From an uncultured Alphaproteobacteria bacterium (lineage in GTDB: Bacteria > Pseudomonadota > Alphaproteobacteria > Rhizobiales > Hyphomicrobiaceae), in the NCBI GenBank assembly GCA_963741565.1, contig CAVUIK010000014.1, positions 10,550 through 74,549 on the forward strand: a DNA stretch of 64,000 bases, written 5' to 3'. Numbering within the stretch: position 1 is the first letter of the stretch; the number at the start of each line of letters is the position of its first letter. The notes beneath the pieces were generated by a model, which searched no databases, was not told the DNA's origin, and was given only the letters and a program-made list of their open reading frames with translations. Shown one piece after another: positions 1,482-17,347 of the stretch. Made by a program: the position numbers and the translations under genes.

Positions 1482-2523
1482 GCGCGTGAGCACTGCCGCG
1501 CGCTGCGGCCAAGGCCGAAAGCGCCGCTGCATTCGCCTGCGCAATGCTGTCGTCAATCGTCTCGGGGCCGATTGCCGCGCCGGCGACGAACACGCCGGGG
1601 CGCGATGTGGCGCCCATAATGCCGTAGGAGTCCTTGCGTGCGATGAAGCCGTGCTTGTGCAGCTCGACGCCGAAGACAGCCGACAGCGTCATGTTGTCGA
1701 CGTTGGGATCCATGCCAATTGCGTGCACGACCATGTCAAAGGGGATCGTGATCGGCCGCTTCACGAGGGTATCTTCGCCCTTCACGATCAGCTGGCGGCC
1801 GTCGCTCGTCACTTCGGCGATCCGGGCCTTGATGTACTTGACCTTGAACTCCTCCTGGCTGCGCCAATAGTAATCGGTCTCGTAGTGGCCGTAGGTGCGG
1901 ATATCCATGTAGTAGATGTAGACATGAGCGTCGGGCAGCTCTTCGCGGATCTCCATGGCCATGTTGGCCGACACAGTGCAGCAGATCTTGGAGCACCATT
2001 CGCGACCGATCTGGCGGTCGCGCGAGCCGACGCACAGCAGGATTGCGACGCGCTTCGGTTTTCGCCCGTCGCTAGGGCATCGCACGCCTGCTCCTGTCGA
2101 GATCATCTGCTCGACTTGCGTCGTCGTCACGACGTCGGGATAGGTGCCGAAGCCCCACTCCGGTTTGTTGTTGCTGTCGAAATGCGTGAAGCCGGTGGCA
2201 AGGATAGCAGCGCCGGCCTCGACGGATTGCCCGTTCGACAGAACCACGCGAAAGGCGCCTGGCGCACCATCGAAGGTCTGCACCTTGGTGTTGAGTGAGA
2301 TCGAAATGGCGGGATCAGACTGGACGCGCGCGACCATGCCGCCGATCGCATCCTTGGCCCACAAGCCGGACGGCACCAGCTTCGCGTACCCCGACAGAAT
2401 GGGAGCGCCGCCGATCTGGTCCATCTTTTCTATGAGCATGCTCGGCTGCCCGACTTGCGACAAGGCATGCGCTGCTGCGAGGCCTGCCGGTCCGCCTCCG
2501 ACGATGAGAATGGGTTTGGTCAT
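1468..2523 (-). CDS. hdrA: sHdr subunit A, FAD/FeS flavoprotein (HdrA-like)
   Basis: 351 aa. N-terminal ILIVGGGPAGLAAA dinucleotide fold. CVGSRD...CSKICC cysteine cluster and C-terminal GVFVAGAAIGP motif, typical of HdrA. Confidence 0.85.
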   Translation of the reverse strand: MTKPILIVGGGPAGLAAAHALSQVGQPSMLIEKMDQIGGAPILSGYAKLVPSGLWAKDAIGGMVARVQSDPAISISLNTKVQTFDGAPGAFRVVLSNGQSVEAGAAILATGFTHFDSNNKPEWGFGTYPDVVTTTQVEQMISTGAGVRCPSDGRKPKRVAILLCVGSRDRQIGREWCSKICCTVSANMAMEIREELPDAHVYIYYMDIRTYGHYETDYYWRSQEEFKVKYIKARIAEVTSDGRQLIVKGEDTLVKRPITIPFDMVVHAIGMDPNVDNMTLSAVFGVELHKHGFIARKDSYGIMGATSRPGVFVAGAAIGPETIDDSIAQANAAALSALAAARGSAHAHAAE

Positions 2524-2533
2524 TGTGCTCTAC

Positions 2534-2654
2534 TCCCTCTCCCGATTGTCTGCATTCCAATGGAGAGGGTCGGGGTGAGGGGCGGCAAAGGGCTCCGAGC
2601 AAGCGGCCACCCTAACCCTCTCCCCGCACAAGTGCAGAGTGCGGAGAGAGGGGA
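2534..2654. repeat. two REP-like imperfect hairpins in the hdrB1-hdrA spacer
   Basis: Hairpin 1: CCCTCTCC (2535-2542) pairs with GGAGAGGG (2572-2579). Hairpin 2: CCCTCTCCCCGCA (2616-2628) pairs imperfectly with TGCGGAGAGAGGGG (2640-2653). They resemble the CCCTCTCCCC/GGGGAGAGGG intergenic palindromes common in Rhizobiales genomes. Confidence 0.6.
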
Positions 2655-2656
2655 TA

Positions 2657-4036
2657 TCATTGCGGCGGCGGCGGGATGACTTCCCGTGTCACCGGCTTGA
2701 ACCCGGGTCCGCTGGTCAGCCGAAGACGTGGATCGTAGAGCTGGTCAGGCTTGGTGCCAGACTGGATCTGGCGCAGATAGGCCTCGAACCCGGCCTTGCT
2801 GGTTTGCCAGTCGATGCCAAGTTTCTCGAGTAAGCCTTCGATGGGTGAGGCGTGCCAGTGCGTCTGCACGATCTTGTAGGGATCGGCGCCACACAGCAGC
2901 GCCGCCATCTGGCAGTCTGCCAAGACGGGCAGCGCCACCTCTTTGCCGTCGCCTTGCGCCTTCGAGATCCACTGGTTCTTGTCGAGGGTGGTGATACAGC
3001 CGGTGTCGTGGCCGATCATCACGTCGGCCTTGGCCTCTTCGACAGCGACGCGAATTTTTCGGTCGATGGCGAACGAGCGCGTGAATTCGCGCTCCGAGAT
3101 GATGTGGCGGAATCCAAAGCCGCAGCAGTCGTACCAGGTCTTGTAGTCGATCACCTGGACGCCCATGGCCTGCATCAGGCCCGTGGAGACGGCGACGCGG
3201 TTGCCGTCAAGAACGCTGTCGTCATAGATCGCATCTTCCGGCACCATCTTGTAGACATGGCAAGCGGGATGGATGGTGGCGCGAACCTGCGAGGCGTCGA
3301 TGATCTGATGCTTTGCAATGTCGCCGCGCACGACATGCAACCATTCGGAATAGTGAACGATCTCTTCGGGAATCAGCAGCTTGCCGTCGACCAGACGTCC
3401 GAGCTTGGCCAGGATCTTCTTCACACTCTCGCGCAGCTTCGCGGAGTGGATCAGATACTGGCGGACCTCCTTGTAGTTGCCGAAGCTCGTGCCGCAGTGA
3501 ACCAGCGGGTAGTAGTGTCCTGCGGTGCCGCCGTGCGCTTTCGCCGAAACGTAGGCCTGATGGAAATTGCGAAGGAATACGGCCGCCAGGCTTTCCAGAT
3601 TGCCGATGCCGGAGCCGTGATAGTTCCACGCCGTGCAGCTGGTCTGGTCGGTCTCGTCGAGGTAGTCGGTGCCAAGCTTGTTCTGCAGCCAGAGGAGCGA
3701 GACTGGATAGCCTGGAATGTTGCCGCACTGACCGCAGCTTTTGTGATGCCAGAGCGCGGTGGTCGGGATCTTCTTGTCCCAGCCATAGAGTGTTTTCACG
3801 GTGACGGGTTTGTGCGCGTCGGTGACGCGGTGGACAACGATCTCGCCATCCTTTTCCAGTTGCCACATGGCGTCGCGGACGTCGGCGACGCGATCCTTGT
3901 TGGTCGCCATCGAGCGCCGGTCGATCCGCTGCTCGACCCATTGCGTCGCGAGCTGCGCCTCGGTGGTCGATAAATTGGCTGGCTTCCATTCGGTACCATG
4001 GCCGGTGAAGCGCTCGCCGTTGGTTGTCTCTGTCAT
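2657..4036 (-). CDS. hdrB1: sHdr subunit B1 (CCG-domain protein, HdrB-like)
   Basis: 459 aa with Cys-rich CCG-type motifs (HKSCGQCGN, WYDCCGFGFRH, GHDTGCITT). It sits between hdrC1 and hdrA as in hdrC1B1A-hyp-hdrC2B2 loci. Confidence 0.85.
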   Translation of the reverse strand: MTETTNGERFTGHGTEWKPANLSTTEAQLATQWVEQRIDRRSMATNKDRVADVRDAMWQLEKDGEIVVHRVTDAHKPVTVKTLYGWDKKIPTTALWHHKSCGQCGNIPGYPVSLLWLQNKLGTDYLDETDQTSCTAWNYHGSGIGNLESLAAVFLRNFHQAYVSAKAHGGTAGHYYPLVHCGTSFGNYKEVRQYLIHSAKLRESVKKILAKLGRLVDGKLLIPEEIVHYSEWLHVVRGDIAKHQIIDASQVRATIHPACHVYKMVPEDAIYDDSVLDGNRVAVSTGLMQAMGVQVIDYKTWYDCCGFGFRHIISEREFTRSFAIDRKIRVAVEEAKADVMIGHDTGCITTLDKNQWISKAQGDGKEVALPVLADCQMAALLCGADPYKIVQTHWHASPIEGLLEKLGIDWQTSKAGFEAYLRQIQSGTKPDQLYDPRLRLTSGPGFKPVTREVIPPPPQ

Positions 4037-12216: not shown

Positions 12217-13011
12217 ATGATGCCAGCGGAATACGATGTGACGGGCAAGGTCGTTCTCGTTACGGGTGCGGGGCGCGGCATCGGCAAGGGGATTGCCCAG
12301 GTGCTTGCGGAGGCCGGTGCGGATGTTGCGATCAACGCACTGACGCCGACGTATGTCGAGGGGCTTGCCGCTGAGATGTCGGCGGCGACGGGACGGCGGG
12401 TCATTCCGGTGATCGCGGACGTGACCAAGTCGGACGGCGCCAATCGTGCGGTCGCGGACGTGATCGCCAAGCTCGGACGGGTGGATGTGCTGGTCAACGC
12501 GCTTGGCGACTCGATCAGAAAACCTCTCGTTGCGCTTCCTGGCACCGCGGGCAGTGGCACACCGATCTCCGACGACGATCTGCGCTTCATCATGGACATC
12601 AACTTGACCGAGGCGTTGTTGTGCACGCGCGCGGTCGGTCCGCACATGCTCACGCGCAAATCCGGCAAGGTAATCAATGTCGCGGCGTGGACCGCGCATC
12701 AAGGTGGACGGGAGATCGTGCTCTACACGACGGCAAAGACGGCGCTCGCCGGCTTCACACGCGCTCAGGCGCTGGAGTGGGCGCCATTCGGAGTGCAGGT
12801 GAACTGCATAGCGCCGGGGCTGTTTCCCGATGTCGTCACCTCCGGCGAGCAGCGCGTGCGCGAAACCGCGGAGCGGGCGAAGACGGCCGTGCCACTTGGC
12901 CGGCCGGGAAAGCTGCGCGAGGCCGGGCTGCTGGCGCTTTACCTTGCGTCTGGAGCGTCAGACTACATGACCGGCCAAACCATCCTGCTCGATGGCGGAA
13001 TGGGGCTGTAA
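12217..13011 (+). CDS. short-chain dehydrogenase/reductase (FabG-like)
   Basis: 264 aa. TGAGRGIGKG cofactor motif and YTTAK active-site motif. AAGAGGAAA SD upstream. Confidence 0.85.
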   Translation: MMPAEYDVTGKVVLVTGAGRGIGKGIAQVLAEAGADVAINALTPTYVEGLAAEMSAATGRRVIPVIADVTKSDGANRAVADVIAKLGRVDVLVNALGDSIRKPLVALPGTAGSGTPISDDDLRFIMDINLTEALLCTRAVGPHMLTRKSGKVINVAAWTAHQGGREIVLYTTAKTALAGFTRAQALEWAPFGVQVNCIAPGLFPDVVTSGEQRVRETAERAKTAVPLGRPGKLREAGLLALYLASGASDYMTGQTILLDGGMGL

Positions 13012-13045
13012 AGAGCCAGGACGCTGATGGCGGGACGAGCTTGAT

Positions 13046-14185
13046 TTAGAGCAACTGGTCCTGCTGGAGCTGCCAACCGTTGAAGGTCACATCGGCAAAC
13101 GGCACCTGGTCGACGGGAAGGTCTGCGTCGAAGGTGTTCTCGAAGACCGGCACCGAAGGGTGCTCGCCGAGGATGTCGCCGGCAACGAGATCGGCCTCGC
13201 CATTCACGACAGCAAGGGCTGTGAATTCCATCAGTTCCGTTGTGTCGTCACCGCCAAGCAGCGCCGCATCGAACGACGCGAGATCTGCGAGTGCGTCATT
13301 GACGACGGGGTTCAGGGCCACGATGTCCTGTGTGCCGTCGTCGTTGTCGATCGTCTGAGCGATCGCGCGGCCTTGGTTGTCGTAGGTCGTCGTGATCCGT
13401 GCCCATGGCATGCGATTGTCAGGATCGAGGCCGACGGCCGAAGAGACGATCCCGTTGGTGAATTCAATGGTCCAGGTTGTCGTGTCGTCGTCGACGCGGG
13501 TCTGGGAAACCGGAGTCCAGTTGGCATCGTACTGGGTCGTGAGCGTCGTCCAATAGCTGGCACCCGACGGATCCCAGTTGACGATCTGGTGCGTGCCGTC
13601 GTCGTTGTCGGTCATCTGCGTGACGAGGCGGCCCTGGTCATCATAAAAAGTTGCGACCTGCGACCACGTCATCCTGTTTTCTGGGTCGAGCCCAATCGCG
13701 GACTCCGGGCGCCCGTCGACGAACTGGATTGCCCAGACCGTCGTATCGTCGTCGGTCCGGGTTTGCGAGGTCGGGGTCCAGTTGGCATCATAGTTCGTGG
13801 TGAGGGACGTCCAATACTCGGTGTTGCCGGTGTCCCAGGTCACGATCTGGTGTGTGCCGTCGTCGTTGTCGATCGTCAGGGCGGCGGCAATACCTGCACT
13901 GTCATAGGTCGTCGTTGCCGTCGACCAGTCGACGCCATTGTCTGGGTCGACGCCAACCGCGGAGGCCGGCTTGCCGTTCGCGAAGTCGATCGTCCAGGTC
14001 GCGCCGGTGTCGTCGACTCGGGTTTGCGAGATCGGCTCCCAACTGCTGTTGTAGACGGTCGCATACGACGACCAGTACGCGCTGTTGGCGGGGTCCCAGT
14101 TGACGATCCGGTGCGTGCCATCGGGATTGTCGATGAGCTCGGAAATGGGGCGGCCTTGGCCGTCGTAGGTGATCGTCATAGTCAC
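13046..14185 (-). CDS. repeat protein: three full copies plus one partial copy of an 87-aa YD-like unit, then an acidic ~90-aa C-terminal region
   Basis: 379 aa. Units are aa 6-92, 93-179 and 180-266, plus a partial one. The consensus is roughly YDxQGR....DNDDGTHQIVNWD....YWT.LTT.YDANWTP.SQTR.DDDTT.W.I.F..G...SA.GLDP.NRM.W....T. No signal peptide. No family recognised. Confidence 0.7.
   Translation of the reverse strand: MTMTITYDGQGRPISELIDNPDGTHRIVNWDPANSAYWSSYATVYNSSWEPISQTRVDDTGATWTIDFANGKPASAVGVDPDNGVDWSTATTTYDSAGIAAALTIDNDDGTHQIVTWDTGNTEYWTSLTTNYDANWTPTSQTRTDDDTTVWAIQFVDGRPESAIGLDPENRMTWSQVATFYDDQGRLVTQMTDNDDGTHQIVNWDPSGASYWTTLTTQYDANWTPVSQTRVDDDTTTWTIEFTNGIVSSAVGLDPDNRMPWARITTTYDNQGRAIAQTIDNDDGTQDIVALNPVVNDALADLASFDAALLGGDDTTELMEFTALAVVNGEADLVAGDILGEHPSVPVFENTFDADLPVDQVPFADVTFNGWQLQQDQLL
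13316..14170 (-). repeat. diverged 261-bp coding tandem repeat (about 3.3 copies)
   Basis: Coordinates derived from the 87-aa periodicity of ORF 13046..14185. Copies are clearly related at the protein level but diverged at the DNA level. Confidence 0.7.
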
Positions 14186-14855
14186 GGGCTCGCTTGGATC
14201 GCTGGATCGAATTCAAAAGACGTCGAGGCGAGCGCAACGGTCCGGCACCGGGGGCGTGACTGTCCGCGAACGCTCATACAACTGAAAGGCGGTCGTCATT
14301 GCATGTGGGACTTCTTCCAAACGCCAATGTCGCTGAGAAATGTAACGCGACCGCTAAGATCGAAGTCAGCGGCGCTGGATTTGGCTTGGGGGAGAGCCGA
14401 TTTTCGAAGCTGAATTGTAGGGCTGACATCGAGCCGGCCGTGATCGGCGAGGGATGTCTCAAAATGTGCCGAGATTTCTGAAAAAATTCAGGTGTTGCCG
14501 TGGATCGATTGGAGCGGGCGATCAGGATTGTTCCGCAGGCTGGCAACATCAATGGCACAGCTCGGTTACGGGATTGAGCGCATGGGGCGAGCGAACCAAG
14601 GGTACCGGTTGCGGATTGTGAAGCTGACGGCGCCCAACCAGTCAAAACGGTAAGGGGATCGGCGGGCCGGAATGGGATCGTGCGCCACGCCCATTATGCC
14701 TATCGGGGGGCAAAATCGCCTGGATCACCAAGCCGGCTGGCGGGCTGTTTGCAAGCATTAGCATCGCGATCAGCCCCGGGCACTTGTTGCTGTCTGAGGC
14801 TTCCACTTCACACCTACTCGAGGTCCACCTGCAACACGATAGGATTTGAGCATGA

Positions 14856-15030
14856 CCCATCGAAACGCTGCTGATCGCATACCTCGGCACCTTTCTCGGT
14901 GCCCTTGGCCTTCCCACTGGCCTTCCTGGCGGCCCACCACGTGATGGCAAGCCACATTGTCCGATTCATGTCGCGCCGCTTCTTTGAAGCGATCCGTGGC
15001 GTCGACACGCTGATCTGGGCGTTGCTCTGG
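14856..15030 (+). pseudogene. internal fragment of a phnE-like phosphonate ABC permease (scar, one frameshift)
   Basis: Two frames read PIETLLIAYLGTFLGA, then LAFPLAFLAAHHVMASHIVRFMSRRFFEAIRGVDTLIWALLW. This resembles the PhnE permease core. There is no start, and similarity ends at 15030. Confidence 0.35.
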
Positions 15031-15047
15031 TCCCTGCCGCGTCGTCT

Positions 15048-15263
15048 CAGGAGAAACGCACCGTACGCCTTGGCCGTATTGAACTCGCTTTGCGTCAGAG
15101 CAATGCGGCTCTCGGGATCACCGACCACGGGCCGCGTAATGTCTCGGCGCGGGAAGCGGAAACGAAGATCTCCGGCAAGCAAGGTTCTCGCTCGCGCGAT
15201 GGGGCTATCCTTGCCGACGACGGATGGACCGACAATCAACGCGAGTATCCCGCGTTCGATCAT
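15048..15263 (-). pseudogene. 5' fragment of phnN-like ribose-1,5-bisphosphokinase (scar)
   Basis: The first 72 aa of ORF 14814..15263 (MIERGILALIVGPSVVGKDS...FPRRDITRPVVGDPESRIALTQSEFNTAKAYGAFLL) match the PhnN P-loop and RxITR pattern. The remainder of the ORF is unrelated low-complexity sequence. Confidence 0.45.
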
Positions 15264-15832
15264 GACGCCTCCGATCTCCGCTCGCGGTTCGTCTCCACGC
15301 TCATCGTGACAGTTCCGTGAATCTGCGGTCGCCTGCCAGCGCCAAACTTATTCACCCGTGGCCGAACCGCCCTATGTGCTCGAGCGTATTGATTTCGAGT
15401 CCAGCCAAGCGACCGTCCGCATGTTGCTCCTCACGAATCGATGGCCACCTCGGCGGCAACCAACCCTTTGCCTAGCGGGCCAGCGGAGGAGCCGCCCACA
15501 GCATCAGCCGGTGCCATCGCTCGGCCGATGAAGGAGTTGTGGACTTTCAGGTTCTTGGTAGGATGCAGGTTCTGTATAGGATAGTCGAATGTAGAGGGGA
15601 CGAGACGACGGCAACATCGTGGAGATTTGTCGGACGCTGGACTGATCGTGTCCGCCGCGTGCAGCGGGCCAGTGCCGGAGACGCGTCAAGGCACGACGTC
15701 GCGGGACGTAAGAAACTGGGGCGAAGCGAACTCTTCTATGGCGAATTGGCTGGGAAAGCGATGATCAGACCGAAATTTCATGCCTGCGGCAGCCGGCGCA
15801 GCTGGTTTGGCCTGTGCTGATCGGGCGACCGT

Positions 15833-17347
15833 ATGCGTCTTGAGCCTGTAGCCTCGATGACAATGCCCCGTCCCCTGCTCGAACTTCGAGGCCTCGGAAA
15901 GTACTACGGTGGCAGGGCGGCGATCAGCGATGTTTCGCTCTCCGTATTGAAGGGCGAGGCCCACGCAATCGTCGGCGAGAATGGCGCCGGCAAGTCGACA
16001 CTGATCAACATCCTGTCGGGAAACCTGCGACCTGACACGGGCAGCCTTCAGCTTGATGGGGCGCCGCTGAAACTCGCGAGCCCGGCGGCGGCGCGCCGCC
16101 ACGGCATTGCGGTGGTTCACCAGGAACTCACAATTATTCCGGCATTGACAGTGGCTGAGAACATTTGTCTTGGTCGGTTGCCCTCGCGCCGCTTTGGCTT
16201 CGTGGATTTTGCAGCCCTGCGTCAGACTGCTGCCGAGGCGCTTCGCCGGCTACACCTCGACATCGACCCGGACACGCTTGCCGGCGTGTTGCCGATTGCG
16301 CAGCAGCAGATGGTCGAGATCGCCAAAGGCGTCGCGAGCGGAGCCCGCATCCTGGTCATGGATGAACCAACCTCATCACTTGGGCCACGGGAGGCCGAGC
16401 GTCTATGGGTCGTAACGGCCGAACTTCGGCGTCAAGGCACGACCGTTCTGTTTGTCTCGCATAAGCTCGACGAAGTGTTGGCCAATGCTCAAACGGTGAG
16501 CGTTATGCGCGACGGCCGTCTGATCGCGAGCGAGGCGGCCGCCGGCTACGATATAACGCGTCTCGTCGCACTGATGGTTGGTCGCAACATCCCTGAGCAG
16601 GTTCAGCGTCGCACGGTTTCGACCACTGATACGGTGCTCCGCGTGCGTGGGCTTTCAAAGGGAACTGAGTTCATCGACGTCGGTTTTGACGTTAAGGCCG
16701 GCGAGATCATCGGGCTTTCTGGCCTTGTGGGTTCCGGTCGGACAGAAGTGGTTCGCTGCATCTTCGGCGCAGATCGACCGGATTCCGGCGAAGTCGAGTT
16801 CGCAGGCCAACGATTGCCGGGCGGCGATCCTCGAACAGCAATTGCAGCCGGGATGGGTTTTGTGCCTGAGAGCCGGAAAGAGCAGGGCCTGTTTTCCAAT
16901 CTCGCAATCGTCGAGAACCTGTCGCTGCCAACTCGGCATACCGGTCCGTTCGGGCTGCTCCAGTCGCGCAAGGAACGGCAAGCCGGAAACGACGGAGTTC
17001 GCGCACTCAAGATTAACGCGCGTTCGCTTGACCAAAGCGTCGCAACCTTGTCCGGGGGCAATCAGCAGAAAGTGATCCTGGCGCGCTGGCTGCGGTTGGC
17101 TCCGCGCCTCCTGATTGTCGATGAGCCGACACGGGGCATTGACGTTGGCGCCAAAGCCGAAATCTACGACATCTTGAGAGCGCAAGCGGAGGCTGGCCGT
17201 GCGGTTCTGCTGGTATCCTCGGAGCTGCCGGAACTCCTCGCGCTTTCTGACCGCATTATTGTCATGCGCGAGGGCAGGATCGCCGGCGAACTCAATCGCG
17301 CGGATGCAAACGAGGAGAGGCTCGGCAGACTTGCAATGGGATACTGA
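15833..17347 (+). CDS. sugar ABC transporter ATP-binding protein with two ABC domains (RbsA/MglA type)
   Basis: 504 aa. Walker A motifs GENGAGKST and GLVGSGRTE, signature LSGGNQQK. The start could instead be the ATG at 15857. Confidence 0.9.
   Translation: MRLEPVASMTMPRPLLELRGLGKYYGGRAAISDVSLSVLKGEAHAIVGENGAGKSTLINILSGNLRPDTGSLQLDGAPLKLASPAAARRHGIAVVHQELTIIPALTVAENICLGRLPSRRFGFVDFAALRQTAAEALRRLHLDIDPDTLAGVLPIAQQQMVEIAKGVASGARILVMDEPTSSLGPREAERLWVVTAELRRQGTTVLFVSHKLDEVLANAQTVSVMRDGRLIASEAAAGYDITRLVALMVGRNIPEQVQRRTVSTTDTVLRVRGLSKGTEFIDVGFDVKAGEIIGLSGLVGSGRTEVVRCIFGADRPDSGEVEFAGQRLPGGDPRTAIAAGMGFVPESRKEQGLFSNLAIVENLSLPTRHTGPFGLLQSRKERQAGNDGVRALKINARSLDQSVATLSGGNQQKVILARWLRLAPRLLIVDEPTRGIDVGAKAEIYDILRAQAEAGRAVLLVSSELPELLALSDRIIVMREGRIAGELNRADANEERLGRLAMGY

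What the first reader, a model, noticed from the sequence alone, without database searches (positions are those of the whole stretch)
13046..14185. Unclassified protein made of 87-aa YD-like tandem repeats with an acidic C-terminal region
There are three full copies and one partial copy of an 87-aa unit. Each unit contains several YD/WD-type beta-hairpin-like motifs (YDxQGR, DNDDGTHQIVNWD, YWTxLTTxYDANWTP, DDDTTxWxIxF, GLDPxNRMxW). The unit is four times longer than a canonical RHS/YD repeat. The protein begins directly in the repeat, has no signal peptide, and ends in a ~90-aa Asp/Glu-rich segment with no repeat. It stands alone, convergent with the SDR gene. I recognise no family, and a non-classical (C-terminal signal) secretion route is conceivable.
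Basis: seen in the sequence. Interest (0 to 1): 0.6.

Follow-up and report, generated by a model that had tools for sequence, protein, structure and literature searches.

The report
Stand-alone YD-like beta-hairpin ribbon protein
This is a real gene for a small protein built from an uncatalogued type of beta-hairpin repeat that elsewhere forms part of secreted calcium-binding (RTX) proteins; it is probably exported and is a modest addition to a known kind of protein, not a new system.

Summary
The ORF at 13046-14185 (-), 379 aa, holds 3.3 copies of an 87-aa unit (118/293 identities at offset 87; 22 expected). An 89-aa tail follows, with 17 Asp/Glu and no Lys/Arg.

The unit splits into 38-aa and 49-aa halves. 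AlphaFold2 models residues 1-290 as 24 antiparallel strands (pLDDT 98) and the tail as mostly disordered.

It is not an orphan, though. An exhaustive search finds 276 clusters carrying the same repeat.

In 66 members scanned, the repeat is fused to RTX repeats (21), cadherin/Ig domains, serralysin-type proteases, glycanases, and once a nuclease toxin.

It is not an Rhs fragment:
- The RHS_repeat model does not match.
- There is no Rhs core.
- The upstream DNA holds no decayed repeats.
- Two complete relatives also start directly in the repeat.

A type I secretion route is plausible but unproven. Family C-termini are enriched 26-fold for an acid-plus-hydrophobic end. This protein ends in DQLL, which is only a loose match. 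The genome has a PrtD-type exporter elsewhere. The tail has no homologue.

Verdict: a new variant of a known kind, of modest interest.

The parts
13046..14185 (-). Complete ORF, 379 aa (P0001). GTG start at 14185, alternative ATG at 14179, stop TAA at 13046-13048.
   Evidence: GC3 is 0.805 and the codon log-likelihood is +0.36 in this frame only. The sliding-window coding signal is positive from 13046 to about 14200.
13316..14185 (-). Repeat region, residues 1-290. It holds three 87-aa units (261 bp each: 13925-14185, 13664-13924, 13403-13663) and a 29-aa partial fourth unit. Each unit is a 38-aa half (3 strands) plus a 49-aa half (4 strands).
   Evidence: Offset identities. AF2 gives pLDDT 97-98 and 24 strands. 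All homologue matches fall in this part.
13049..13315 (-). Acidic non-repeat tail, residues 291-379. It has 17 D/E and 0 K/R, a predicted helix at 293-309, then a disordered stretch, and ends in QQDQLL. It is a candidate type I secretion signal.
   Evidence: No homologue in 155 family representatives, in the own genome, or in the 5.8-billion-protein index.
14186..14215 (-). Nine in-frame codons (IRSSDPSEP) between the upstream TGA stop (14213-14215) and the GTG start. There is no clear Shine-Dalgarno sequence.
   Evidence: Read. DPSEP faintly recalls the inter-unit loop DPDNRMPW, but this is too short to test.
14200..15830 (.). A 1.6-kb stretch upstream of the gene with no coding signal in any frame. 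It holds a phnN-like fragment at 14814-15263 (-). It is context, not part of the gene.
   Evidence: No remnants of family members. An earlier-scan note on phn scars also applies.

Best explanation
The ORF is an intact, expressed-type gene for a stand-alone member of an uncurated family of YD-like beta-hairpin repeats.

What is shown:
- Residues 1-290 are modelled as one continuous antiparallel beta-meander of 24 strands, 7 strands per 87-aa unit.
- The chain reverses at YDxxGR, DDG, NG and DPxN turns.
- The sequence is rich in Thr, Asp and Trp and has no hydrophobic core. This matches the single-layer sheet architecture of Rhs/teneurin YD shells, the central sheet of OspA, and MORN proteins.
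- An 89-aa, strongly acidic, mostly disordered tail follows.

What is inferred:
- In other bacteria the same repeat is a module of leaderless secreted proteins, most often placed after RTX calcium-binding repeats. The protein is therefore most likely exported without an N-terminal signal.
- Export would go through a type I secretion system that recognises the C-terminal tail. The genome encodes a PrtD-type exporter on another contig.
- Outside the cell it would act as a rigid binding or scaffolding ribbon, not as an enzyme or toxin.

My probabilities for the sub-claims:
- Real gene and member of this repeat family: about 0.9.
- Single-layer beta-ribbon fold: about 0.8.
- Extracellular location: about 0.5.
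- Type I secretion via the tail: about 0.35.
For: Real gene:
- GC3 is 0.805 and the codon log-likelihood is positive only in this frame, tail included.
- dN/dS between the units is about 0.2-0.5.

Family:
- phmmer over 1.84 billion representatives gives 276 clusters at E<=1e-3, 57 at <=1e-10 and 3 at <=1e-30. All matches fall within residues 1 to about 300.

Fold:
- AF2 with a 38-sequence alignment gives pLDDT 98 over residues 1-290 with 24 strands.
- The Foldseek PDB top hits are RhsA (E 1.5e-8), Tse5, Advenella Rhs, teneurins, engineered OspA sheets and MORN1. In BFVD the hits are MORN-repeat proteins.
- A profile search of PDB sequences hits only engineered OspA, at a marginal level.

Secreted context of the family:
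- Of 66 members scanned with Pfam, 21 have HemolysinCabind, 7 Big_9/Cadherin, 5 CARDB, 5 Peptidase_M10_C and 3 FG-GAP. GH5, GH9, TseH-like and Tox-REase-5 also occur.
- RTX motifs lie before the repeat region in 45 representatives and after it in 2.
- Same-genus relatives carry the repeat after RTX repeats, in one case after a serralysin-type HEIGHALGLGH protease.

A leaderless N-terminal repeat is normal in this family:
- P0002 and P0009 are complete mid-contig genes that start in the repeat.

C-terminal signal:
- 39/161 family proteins end in [DE]+2-4 hydrophobic residues, against 37/3041 background ORFs (odds ratio 26, p 3e-32).
- The window protein ends in DQLL, which fits the loose pattern only.
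- The net acidic charge of its last 60 residues is 11, a value reached by 0.13% of background ORFs.

Exporter in the genome:
- A TIGR01842 (PrtD) match of 697 bits, above the cut-off, lies at C8:200766-202376.
- A second ABC exporter sits beside RTX genes at C8:816776-822670.
Against: - The protein has no RTX nonapeptide and no HemolysinCabind hit.
- The tail has no homologue anywhere.
- The tail does not match the family's recurrent C-terminal cap YDxxxD[IV]PxEY; 963 of 2000 shuffles score as well.
- The tail does not resemble the conserved C-termini of this genome's own RTX proteins.
- No secretion gene lies near the ORF. Its neighbours are an SDR, a ThDP enzyme and a sugar ABC importer.
- The terminal DQLL fits only the loose pattern, which 6% of ordinary ORFs also fit.
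- Foldseek TM-scores are low (0.12-0.38), so the similarity is local hairpin geometry and not an overall shape.
Confidence: 0.45

Rival explanations
1. Relic of a larger secreted protein. A rearrangement removed the N-terminal enzyme/adhesin and RTX parts, or the original C-terminal domains. What remains is a repeat-only ORF that is still open but may be non-functional or no longer exported.
For: - In 124 of 144 representatives the repeat region is C-terminal or internal and preceded by other domains.
- The ORF starts inside a repeat unit, only nine codons after a stop.
- The 1.6 kb upstream has no coding signal and holds phn gene scars, so this spot has been rearranged.
- The tail is unique to this protein.
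- This is the only family member in its genome, and flanking synteny is absent in congeners.
Against: - No remnant of RTX, other domains or further repeat units is detectable in 600-1700 bp upstream in any frame.
- The ORF is uninterrupted for 379 codons and has native codon usage. The tail has the strongest coding score.
- The complete absence of K/R from 89 tail residues argues for selection.
- Complete relatives (P0002, P0009) also begin in the repeat.
Confidence: 0.25
2. Cytoplasmic beta-hairpin repeat protein of the MORN / YwqK-like kind. It would be an intracellular binding scaffold or immunity-type protein that is not secreted at all.
For: - There is no signal peptide, no RTX repeat and no linked secretion gene.
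- Foldseek also hits MORN proteins.
- Two family members give sub-threshold MORN_2 scores (27.2 and 17.8 bits against a cut-off of 29.6).
- P0002 also sits among housekeeping genes.
Against: - P0001 has no MORN_2 hit even at E<=10.
- The family's partner domains are overwhelmingly extracellular: RTX, cadherin, CARDB, serralysin, glycanases.
- No toxin gene is adjacent.
- The T1SS-type C-terminal ends are enriched in the family.
Confidence: 0.12
3. Fragment or miniature of an Rhs/YD polymorphic toxin. The repeats would form part of a toxin-encapsulating shell and the tail would be a small toxin.
For: - The best Foldseek hit is the T6SS effector RhsA (E 1.5e-8).
- Three YDxxGR motifs are present.
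- One relative (P0008) joins the same 87-aa-type repeats to a Tox-REase-5 nuclease toxin.
- Two relatives just reach the RHS_repeat cut-off.
Against: - PF05593 does not match P0001 at E<=10, and TIGR01643 scores 7.4 bits against a cut-off of 15.8.
- There is no PF05593 hit anywhere in this genome.
- There is no Rhs core motif.
- The 290 aa / 24 strands are far too few for a closed shell, and TM-scores to Rhs are 0.12-0.18.
- The tail is acidic, disordered and matches no toxin family.
- There is no immunity gene, VgrG or PAAR nearby. The downstream gene is a convergent SDR.
Confidence: 0.03

Closest known systems
RHS / YD repeats (Pfam PF05593, NCBIfam TIGR01643), as in T6SS Rhs effectors and teneurin YD shells
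   Same: - Beta-hairpin repeats with a YDxxGR turn and a D(D/N)G turn.
- A polar single-layer antiparallel sheet.
- Best Foldseek hits (E 1e-8 to 1e-6).
- Two family members just reach the PF05593 cut-off.
- One relative carries a C-terminal polymorphic-toxin nuclease (P0008).
   Different: - The models do not recognise this protein.
- The period is 87 aa (38+49; 7 strands), not about 21 aa.
- There are only 24 strands, so no closed cocoon can form. There is no Rhs core, plug or toxin.
- Global TM-score is 0.12-0.18.
- The usual partners are RTX/T1SS proteins, not T6SS or Tc systems.
Leaderless type I secretion cargo with RTX repeats (serralysin-type proteases, RTX adhesins)
   Same: - The family's commonest fusion partner is RTX (21/66), including serralysin-type proteases in the same genus.
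- No N-terminal signal.
- An acidic C-terminus ending in an acid followed by hydrophobic residues is enriched in the family.
- The genome has a PrtD-type exporter.
   Different: - This protein has no GGxGxD repeat at all.
- Its tail shares nothing with the C-termini of the genome's RTX proteins.
- It ends in DQLL, not the typical D-hydrophobic-hydrophobic-hydrophobic pattern.
- It is unlinked to any exporter.
Single-layer beta-sheet of Borrelia OspA and its engineered hairpin-extension variants (e.g. 2fkj, 3cka)
   Same: - It is the only sequence-profile hit in the PDB (E 7.5e-4).
- It gives the best TM-scores in Foldseek (0.32-0.38).
- The sheet is a flat meander of polar hairpins without a hydrophobic core.
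   Different: There is no homology. OspA is a lipoprotein with globular end domains. RMSD is 14-17 A, so the twist differs.
MORN and MORN_2 (YwqK-type) repeats
   Same: An elongated antiparallel hairpin sheet with G-containing turns. Foldseek hits appear in PDB and BFVD. Some relatives give weak MORN_2 scores.
   Different: P0001 has no MORN_2 match. MORN units are 22-23 aa. MORN proteins are intracellular, whereas this family's partners are extracellular.

Membership tests
RHS/YD repeat family (PF05593, TIGR01643) | Match to the repeat HMM above the curated cut-off | tested here: not met
   PF05593 is not listed even at E<=10. TIGR01643 scores 7.4 bits against a cut-off of 15.8, E 6.9. No PF05593 match in the whole genome.
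RHS/YD repeat family (PF05593, TIGR01643) | Rhs core (PxxxxDPxGL region) with a closed shell of several hundred residues enclosing a C-terminal toxin | tested here: not met
   No core motif. The repeat region is only 290 aa / 24 strands. The tail matches no toxin family.
RHS/YD repeat family (PF05593, TIGR01643) | YD-type beta-hairpin sheet fold | tested here: inconclusive
   Foldseek gives E 1.5e-8 to RhsA and hits to other Rhs proteins and teneurins, but TM is 0.12-0.18 and RMSD about 30 A. The resemblance is local only.
RHS/YD repeat family (PF05593, TIGR01643) | Linkage to a T6SS (VgrG/PAAR), Tc components or an immunity gene | tested here: not met
   Neighbours are a ThDP enzyme, an SDR, decayed phn fragments and a sugar ABC importer.
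RTX / type I secretion substrates | GGxGxDxUx nonapeptide repeats (PF00353) | tested here: not met
   No GGxGxD. No HemolysinCabind hit.
RTX / type I secretion substrates | No N-terminal signal peptide; uncleaved acidic C-terminal signal ending in an acid plus hydrophobic residues | tested here: inconclusive
   No hydrophobic N-terminus. The tail has net charge -11 over the last 60 aa, and the DQLL end fits only the loose pattern that 6% of background ORFs also fit.
RTX / type I secretion substrates | A type I exporter (ABC + MFP + OMP) in the genome, often linked to the substrate gene | tested here: inconclusive
   A PrtD-type ABC above the cut-off lies at C8:200766, and a second one lies next to RTX genes. 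Both are on another contig, and nothing is linked to the ORF.
RTX / type I secretion substrates | Demonstrated exporter-dependent secretion | not testable with these tools
   Needs an experiment.
Uncurated W-x5-YD-x2-G ... DDGT hairpin-repeat family (this report; no database accession) | Significant sequence similarity across several repeat units to other members | tested here: met
   phmmer E 1.7e-34 to 1e-10 for 57 representative clusters, 276 at E<=1e-3. Same-genus hits at E 3.5e-12. The same alternating 38/49-aa arrangement occurs in P0009, P0008 and P0043.
MORN_2 / YwqK-type repeats (PF07661) | Match to the repeat HMM above the cut-off | tested here: not met
   No PF07661 hit for P0001 at E<=10. 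Relatives reach 27.2 and 17.8 bits, below the 29.6 cut-off.

The most novel reading that the evidence does not exclude
The protein is a minimal, RTX-free cargo of type I secretion. A leaderless 24-strand single-layer beta-ribbon is exported by means of an orphan, Lys/Arg-free, disordered 89-aa tail, which would be a new kind of C-terminal secretion signal. The 7-strand (3+4) 87-aa unit would define a new class of natural single-layer beta-sheet repeat, distinct from YD, MORN and OspA. In the wider family this module, placed after RTX blocks, might be the first part to emerge from the exporter and fold.
Probability: 0.15. Interest if true: 0.5.

Novelty: new variant of a known kind. Interest (0 to 1): 0.3.

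Why it matters
If the reading holds, it has three uses:
- It names an unmodelled repeat family of at least 276 clusters. Annotation pipelines currently leave it blank or label it only by its RTX or other domains. A Pfam-type model could be built from it.
- It offers a small (290-aa), very confidently modelled natural single-layer beta-sheet, useful for folding and protein-engineering work of the kind done on OspA.
- It provides a compact test case for whether type I secretion can handle a non-RTX beta-ribbon with an atypical tail.

It does not point to a new biological system, and the function of the ribbon (binding partner, surface retention) remains unknown.

Tried and rejected
1. 5'-truncated Rhs gene. 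Rejected: no RHS_repeat match, no Rhs core, and no family or repeat remnants in 600-1700 bp upstream in any frame.

2. Tail homologous to the family's recurrent C-terminal cap (YDxxxD[IV]PxEY..., seen in 12 representatives). By eye FENTFDADLPVDQV looked similar. An HMM of the cap scores the tail 0.0 bits, and 963/2000 shuffles do as well. Rejected.

3. Tail homologous to anything else. None found by phmmer against 155 representatives, tblastn against the own genome, or a region search of 5.8 billion proteins.

4. Tail similar to the C-termini of this genome's RTX proteins. No shared motif.

5. Synteny in congeners, to see whether the gene is an insertion or a remnant. Only the SDR is conserved in G003 and G007, and the flanks differ. 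Uninformative.

6. Recent tandem amplification or copy-number variation. TRF finds no DNA repeat, units are only 62-64% identical in DNA, and dS is near saturation.

7. Phage or defence origin. The PF23887/phrog_690 matches cover about 10 residues and are below the cut-off. PADLOC gave nothing.

8. Calcium-binding DxDxDG loop. DNDDGT does not fit the DxDxDG register, by reading. In relatives the conserved motif is (N/Y/F)D(D/N)G(T/S), an ordinary hairpin turn.

9. Promoter, terminator and Rfam scans of 12900-15900. Nothing informative.

10. The search for related loci with P0001 or with the A1 alignment in genome contigs. No relatives, or no usable conserved stretch.

11. Literature search for RTX plus YD-type repeats. 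No paper describing this module was found.

Full report
**1. The observation**

The ORF lies at 13046..14185 on the minus strand and encodes 379 aa. It begins with GTG at 14185, and an ATG follows two codons later. An in-frame TGA sits nine codons upstream, so the reading frame cannot extend further.

Comparing the protein with itself gives 118 identities in 293 positions at offset 87 and 70 in 206 at offset 174. Composition predicts about 22, and no unrelated offset exceeds 11.8% identity.

Offsets 38 and 49 also stand out. The 87-aa unit is therefore two related halves. Each half has the form W-x5-YD-xx-(G/W)-...-DDD(G)T-...-(W/F), and the second half carries an extra NG hairpin.

The units are 49-61% identical in protein and only 62-64% in DNA. 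Synonymous sites are close to saturation and dN/dS is about 0.2-0.5. These are old duplications kept by selection, not a recent expansion. This is why Tandem Repeats Finder sees nothing.

The last 89 residues are non-repetitive, with 17 Asp/Glu and no Lys or Arg. There is no hydrophobic N-terminus.

The frame is truly coding. GC3 is 0.805 and the codon-usage log-likelihood is positive in this frame only. The tail gives the strongest signal. The long antisense ORF at 13160-14413 is the usual high-GC shadow.

**2. Surroundings**

Downstream, 34 bp away and convergent, is a short-chain dehydrogenase. Beyond it is a ThDP enzyme.

Upstream, from about 14200 to 15830, no frame shows coding potential. 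This stretch contains a phnN-like fragment. A sugar ABC import operon follows.

The gene has no paralogue in its 5.1-Mb genome, and the tail has none either.

Only the SDR is conserved near this position in two congeners, so synteny says nothing about the gene's origin. Two same-genus genomes are titled 'Rhizobiales bacterium Ga0077537' and 'Hyphomicrobiaceae bacterium JTS-AC149'.

**3. Relatives**

No Pfam, NCBIfam, PHROGs or PADLOC model reaches its cut-off. RHS_repeat is absent even at E<=10, and YD_repeat_2x scores 7.4 bits against a cut-off of 15.8.

The word-indexed search found only five weak hits. The exhaustive phmmer search of 1.84 billion representatives found 276 clusters at E<=1e-3, 57 at <=1e-10 and 3 at <=1e-30. 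All the best matched stretches listed end by residue 307, so they cover the repeat region only. The family is rare. None of 400 other sampled genomes of the class matched a family profile at 1e-8, and only 3 of 23 congeners have a member.

The relatives show what the repeat is used for:
- Of 66 members scanned with Pfam, 21 carry RTX nonapeptide repeats, 7 bacterial Ig/cadherin domains, 5 CARDB, 5 the serralysin C-terminal domain and 3 FG-GAP. Single members carry GH5 or GH9 glycanases, a TseH-like effector domain or a Tox-REase-5 nuclease toxin.
- In 144 representatives the repeat region is C-terminal in 69, internal in 55, N-terminal in 14 and the whole protein in 6.
- Where RTX motifs occur, they precede the repeat in 45 cases and follow it in 2.
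- The same-genus relatives are a 419-aa RTX protein ending in five or six 38-40-aa repeats, a serralysin-type HEIGHALGLGH protease with RTX and the repeat, and a second large RTX protein.
- The alternating 38/49-aa arrangement of the window protein recurs in P0009 (repeats + FG-GAP + RTX), P0008 (repeats + Tox-REase-5) and P0043.

**4. Is it a truncated gene?**

That is excluded:
- No RHS_repeat match here or anywhere in the genome.
- No Rhs core motif.
- No T6SS or immunity neighbours.

Truncation of some other large secreted protein cannot be excluded. The typical architecture puts other domains in front of the repeat, and the upstream DNA is a decayed, rearranged stretch.

Several results argue against truncation:
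- tblastn of 155 family proteins against 14150-15850 gives nothing better than E 0.004, and that hit is far from the gene.
- A repeat-unit HMM finds nothing in any frame of the 600 bp upstream.
- Two relatives that are complete genes in the middle of long contigs (P0002 and P0009) also begin with a few residues and then the repeat, without a signal peptide.
- Several other N-terminal-type members have similar starts.

Starting in the repeat is therefore a normal family architecture.

**5. Structure**

AlphaFold2 with a 38-sequence alignment gives pLDDT 97-98 for residues 1-290. The model has 24 beta-strands of 5-8 residues joined by short turns, seven per 87-aa unit (three in the 38-aa half, four in the 49-aa half). 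A helix at 293-309 follows, and then a low-confidence, apparently disordered tail.

Foldseek against the PDB returns T6SS Rhs effectors (RhsA, E 1.5e-8; Tse5; Advenella Rhs; Tse15), teneurin YD shells, engineered OspA single-layer sheets and MORN1. TM-scores are only 0.12-0.38. The viral library returns MORN-repeat proteins. A sequence profile of the family hits only engineered OspA in the PDB, and only marginally.

I read this as a polar, core-less, single-layer antiparallel ribbon of the YD/OspA/MORN class. It is too short to close into an Rhs-type cocoon. I could not inspect the coordinates, so the ribbon's twist is unknown.

**6. Secretion**

The family context is that of leaderless secreted proteins. 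Its C-termini are strongly enriched for the classical type I ending of an acidic residue followed by 2-4 hydrophobic residues: 39 of 161 family proteins against 37 of 3041 background ORFs of this genome (odds ratio 26, p 3e-32).

The window protein ends in QQDQLL. This fits only a looser pattern that 6% of background ORFs also fit. Its last 60 residues carry a net charge of -11, which only 0.13% of background ORFs reach.

The genome has a PrtD-type ABC exporter above the TIGR01842 cut-off. It has a second exporter next to RTX genes, and RTX-repeat ORFs at eight places in all. All are on other contigs.

Against the idea:
- The protein has no RTX repeat.
- The tail is an orphan.
- The tail does not match the family's recurrent cap motif.
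- The tail does not match the conserved C-termini of the genome's own RTX proteins.

Type I export through the tail is therefore the best available mechanism. I put it at only about one in three.

**7. Verdict**

The protein belongs to a real, unmodelled, sporadically distributed family of YD-like hairpin repeats that serves as a module of secreted proteins, mostly RTX proteins. This copy is an unusual stand-alone version with a unique acidic tail.

It works like a YD/OspA-type beta-ribbon but fails the membership tests for RHS/YD, MORN_2 and RTX. I class it as a new variant of a known kind, of modest interest.

The main rival, at about 0.25, is that it is a surviving piece of a larger secreted protein.

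One tool (look-up of sequencing runs) was closed, so expression and read-level checks could not be made.

Noticed in passing
window 14200-15830: A 1.6-kb stretch between the repeat gene and the sugar ABC operon has no coding signal in any of the six frames. It contains a phnN-like N-terminal fragment (14814-15263, minus strand). It looks like a decayed, rearranged region.
   Followed up: partly
L005 (G001:C1) 1827-3188 and L003 (G008:C243) 2181-3470: In two same-genus genomes the 419-aa RTX + hairpin-repeat gene is followed, convergently, by a conserved membrane-protein gene of about 430-450 aa (MRHVLGVLGVLAAAVLL...). Its function is unknown and it was not scanned.
   Followed up: no
G001: C16 (whole 609-bp contig), the start of C1, and the end of C30: Family members in the congener G001 lie at contig ends or on a tiny contig. 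These repeats apparently break short-read assemblies, so copy numbers in MAGs may be underestimates.
   Followed up: no
P0004, P0019, P0051, P0089, P0096, P0105, P0106, P0145, P0154, P0157 (C-termini): A recurrent C-terminal cap in the family: ...T-x-YD-x3-D-(I/V/L)-P-x-x-Y... followed by an acidic/hydrophobic end. It may be the family's usual secretion signal. The window protein does not match it significantly.
   Followed up: partly
P0008 (753 aa, metagenome): The same 87-aa-type repeats are joined to a C-terminal Tox-REase-5 nuclease domain (29.7 bits, cut-off 25). The ribbon is therefore also used as the carrier part of a polymorphic toxin.
   Followed up: partly
L020 5550-10145 (contig carrying P0009): The closest alternating-repeat relative (repeats + FG-GAP + RTX) overlaps the stop of an NTP_transf_8 gene. 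It lies just after a KilA-N/BstA_C gene, possibly on a mobile or defence island.
   Followed up: no
own genome C8:816776-822670 and C8:200766-202376: There are two type I exporter ABC genes. One scores above the PrtD cut-off (697 bits). The other lies directly beside two RTX genes whose products end in ...GLILA and ...GMILV.
   Followed up: partly
window 14186-14212: The nine codons between the upstream stop and the GTG start read IRSSDPSEP. This faintly recalls the inter-unit loop (S)SAVGLDPDNRMPW. It is too short to test, and could be chance or the last trace of an earlier unit.
   Followed up: partly
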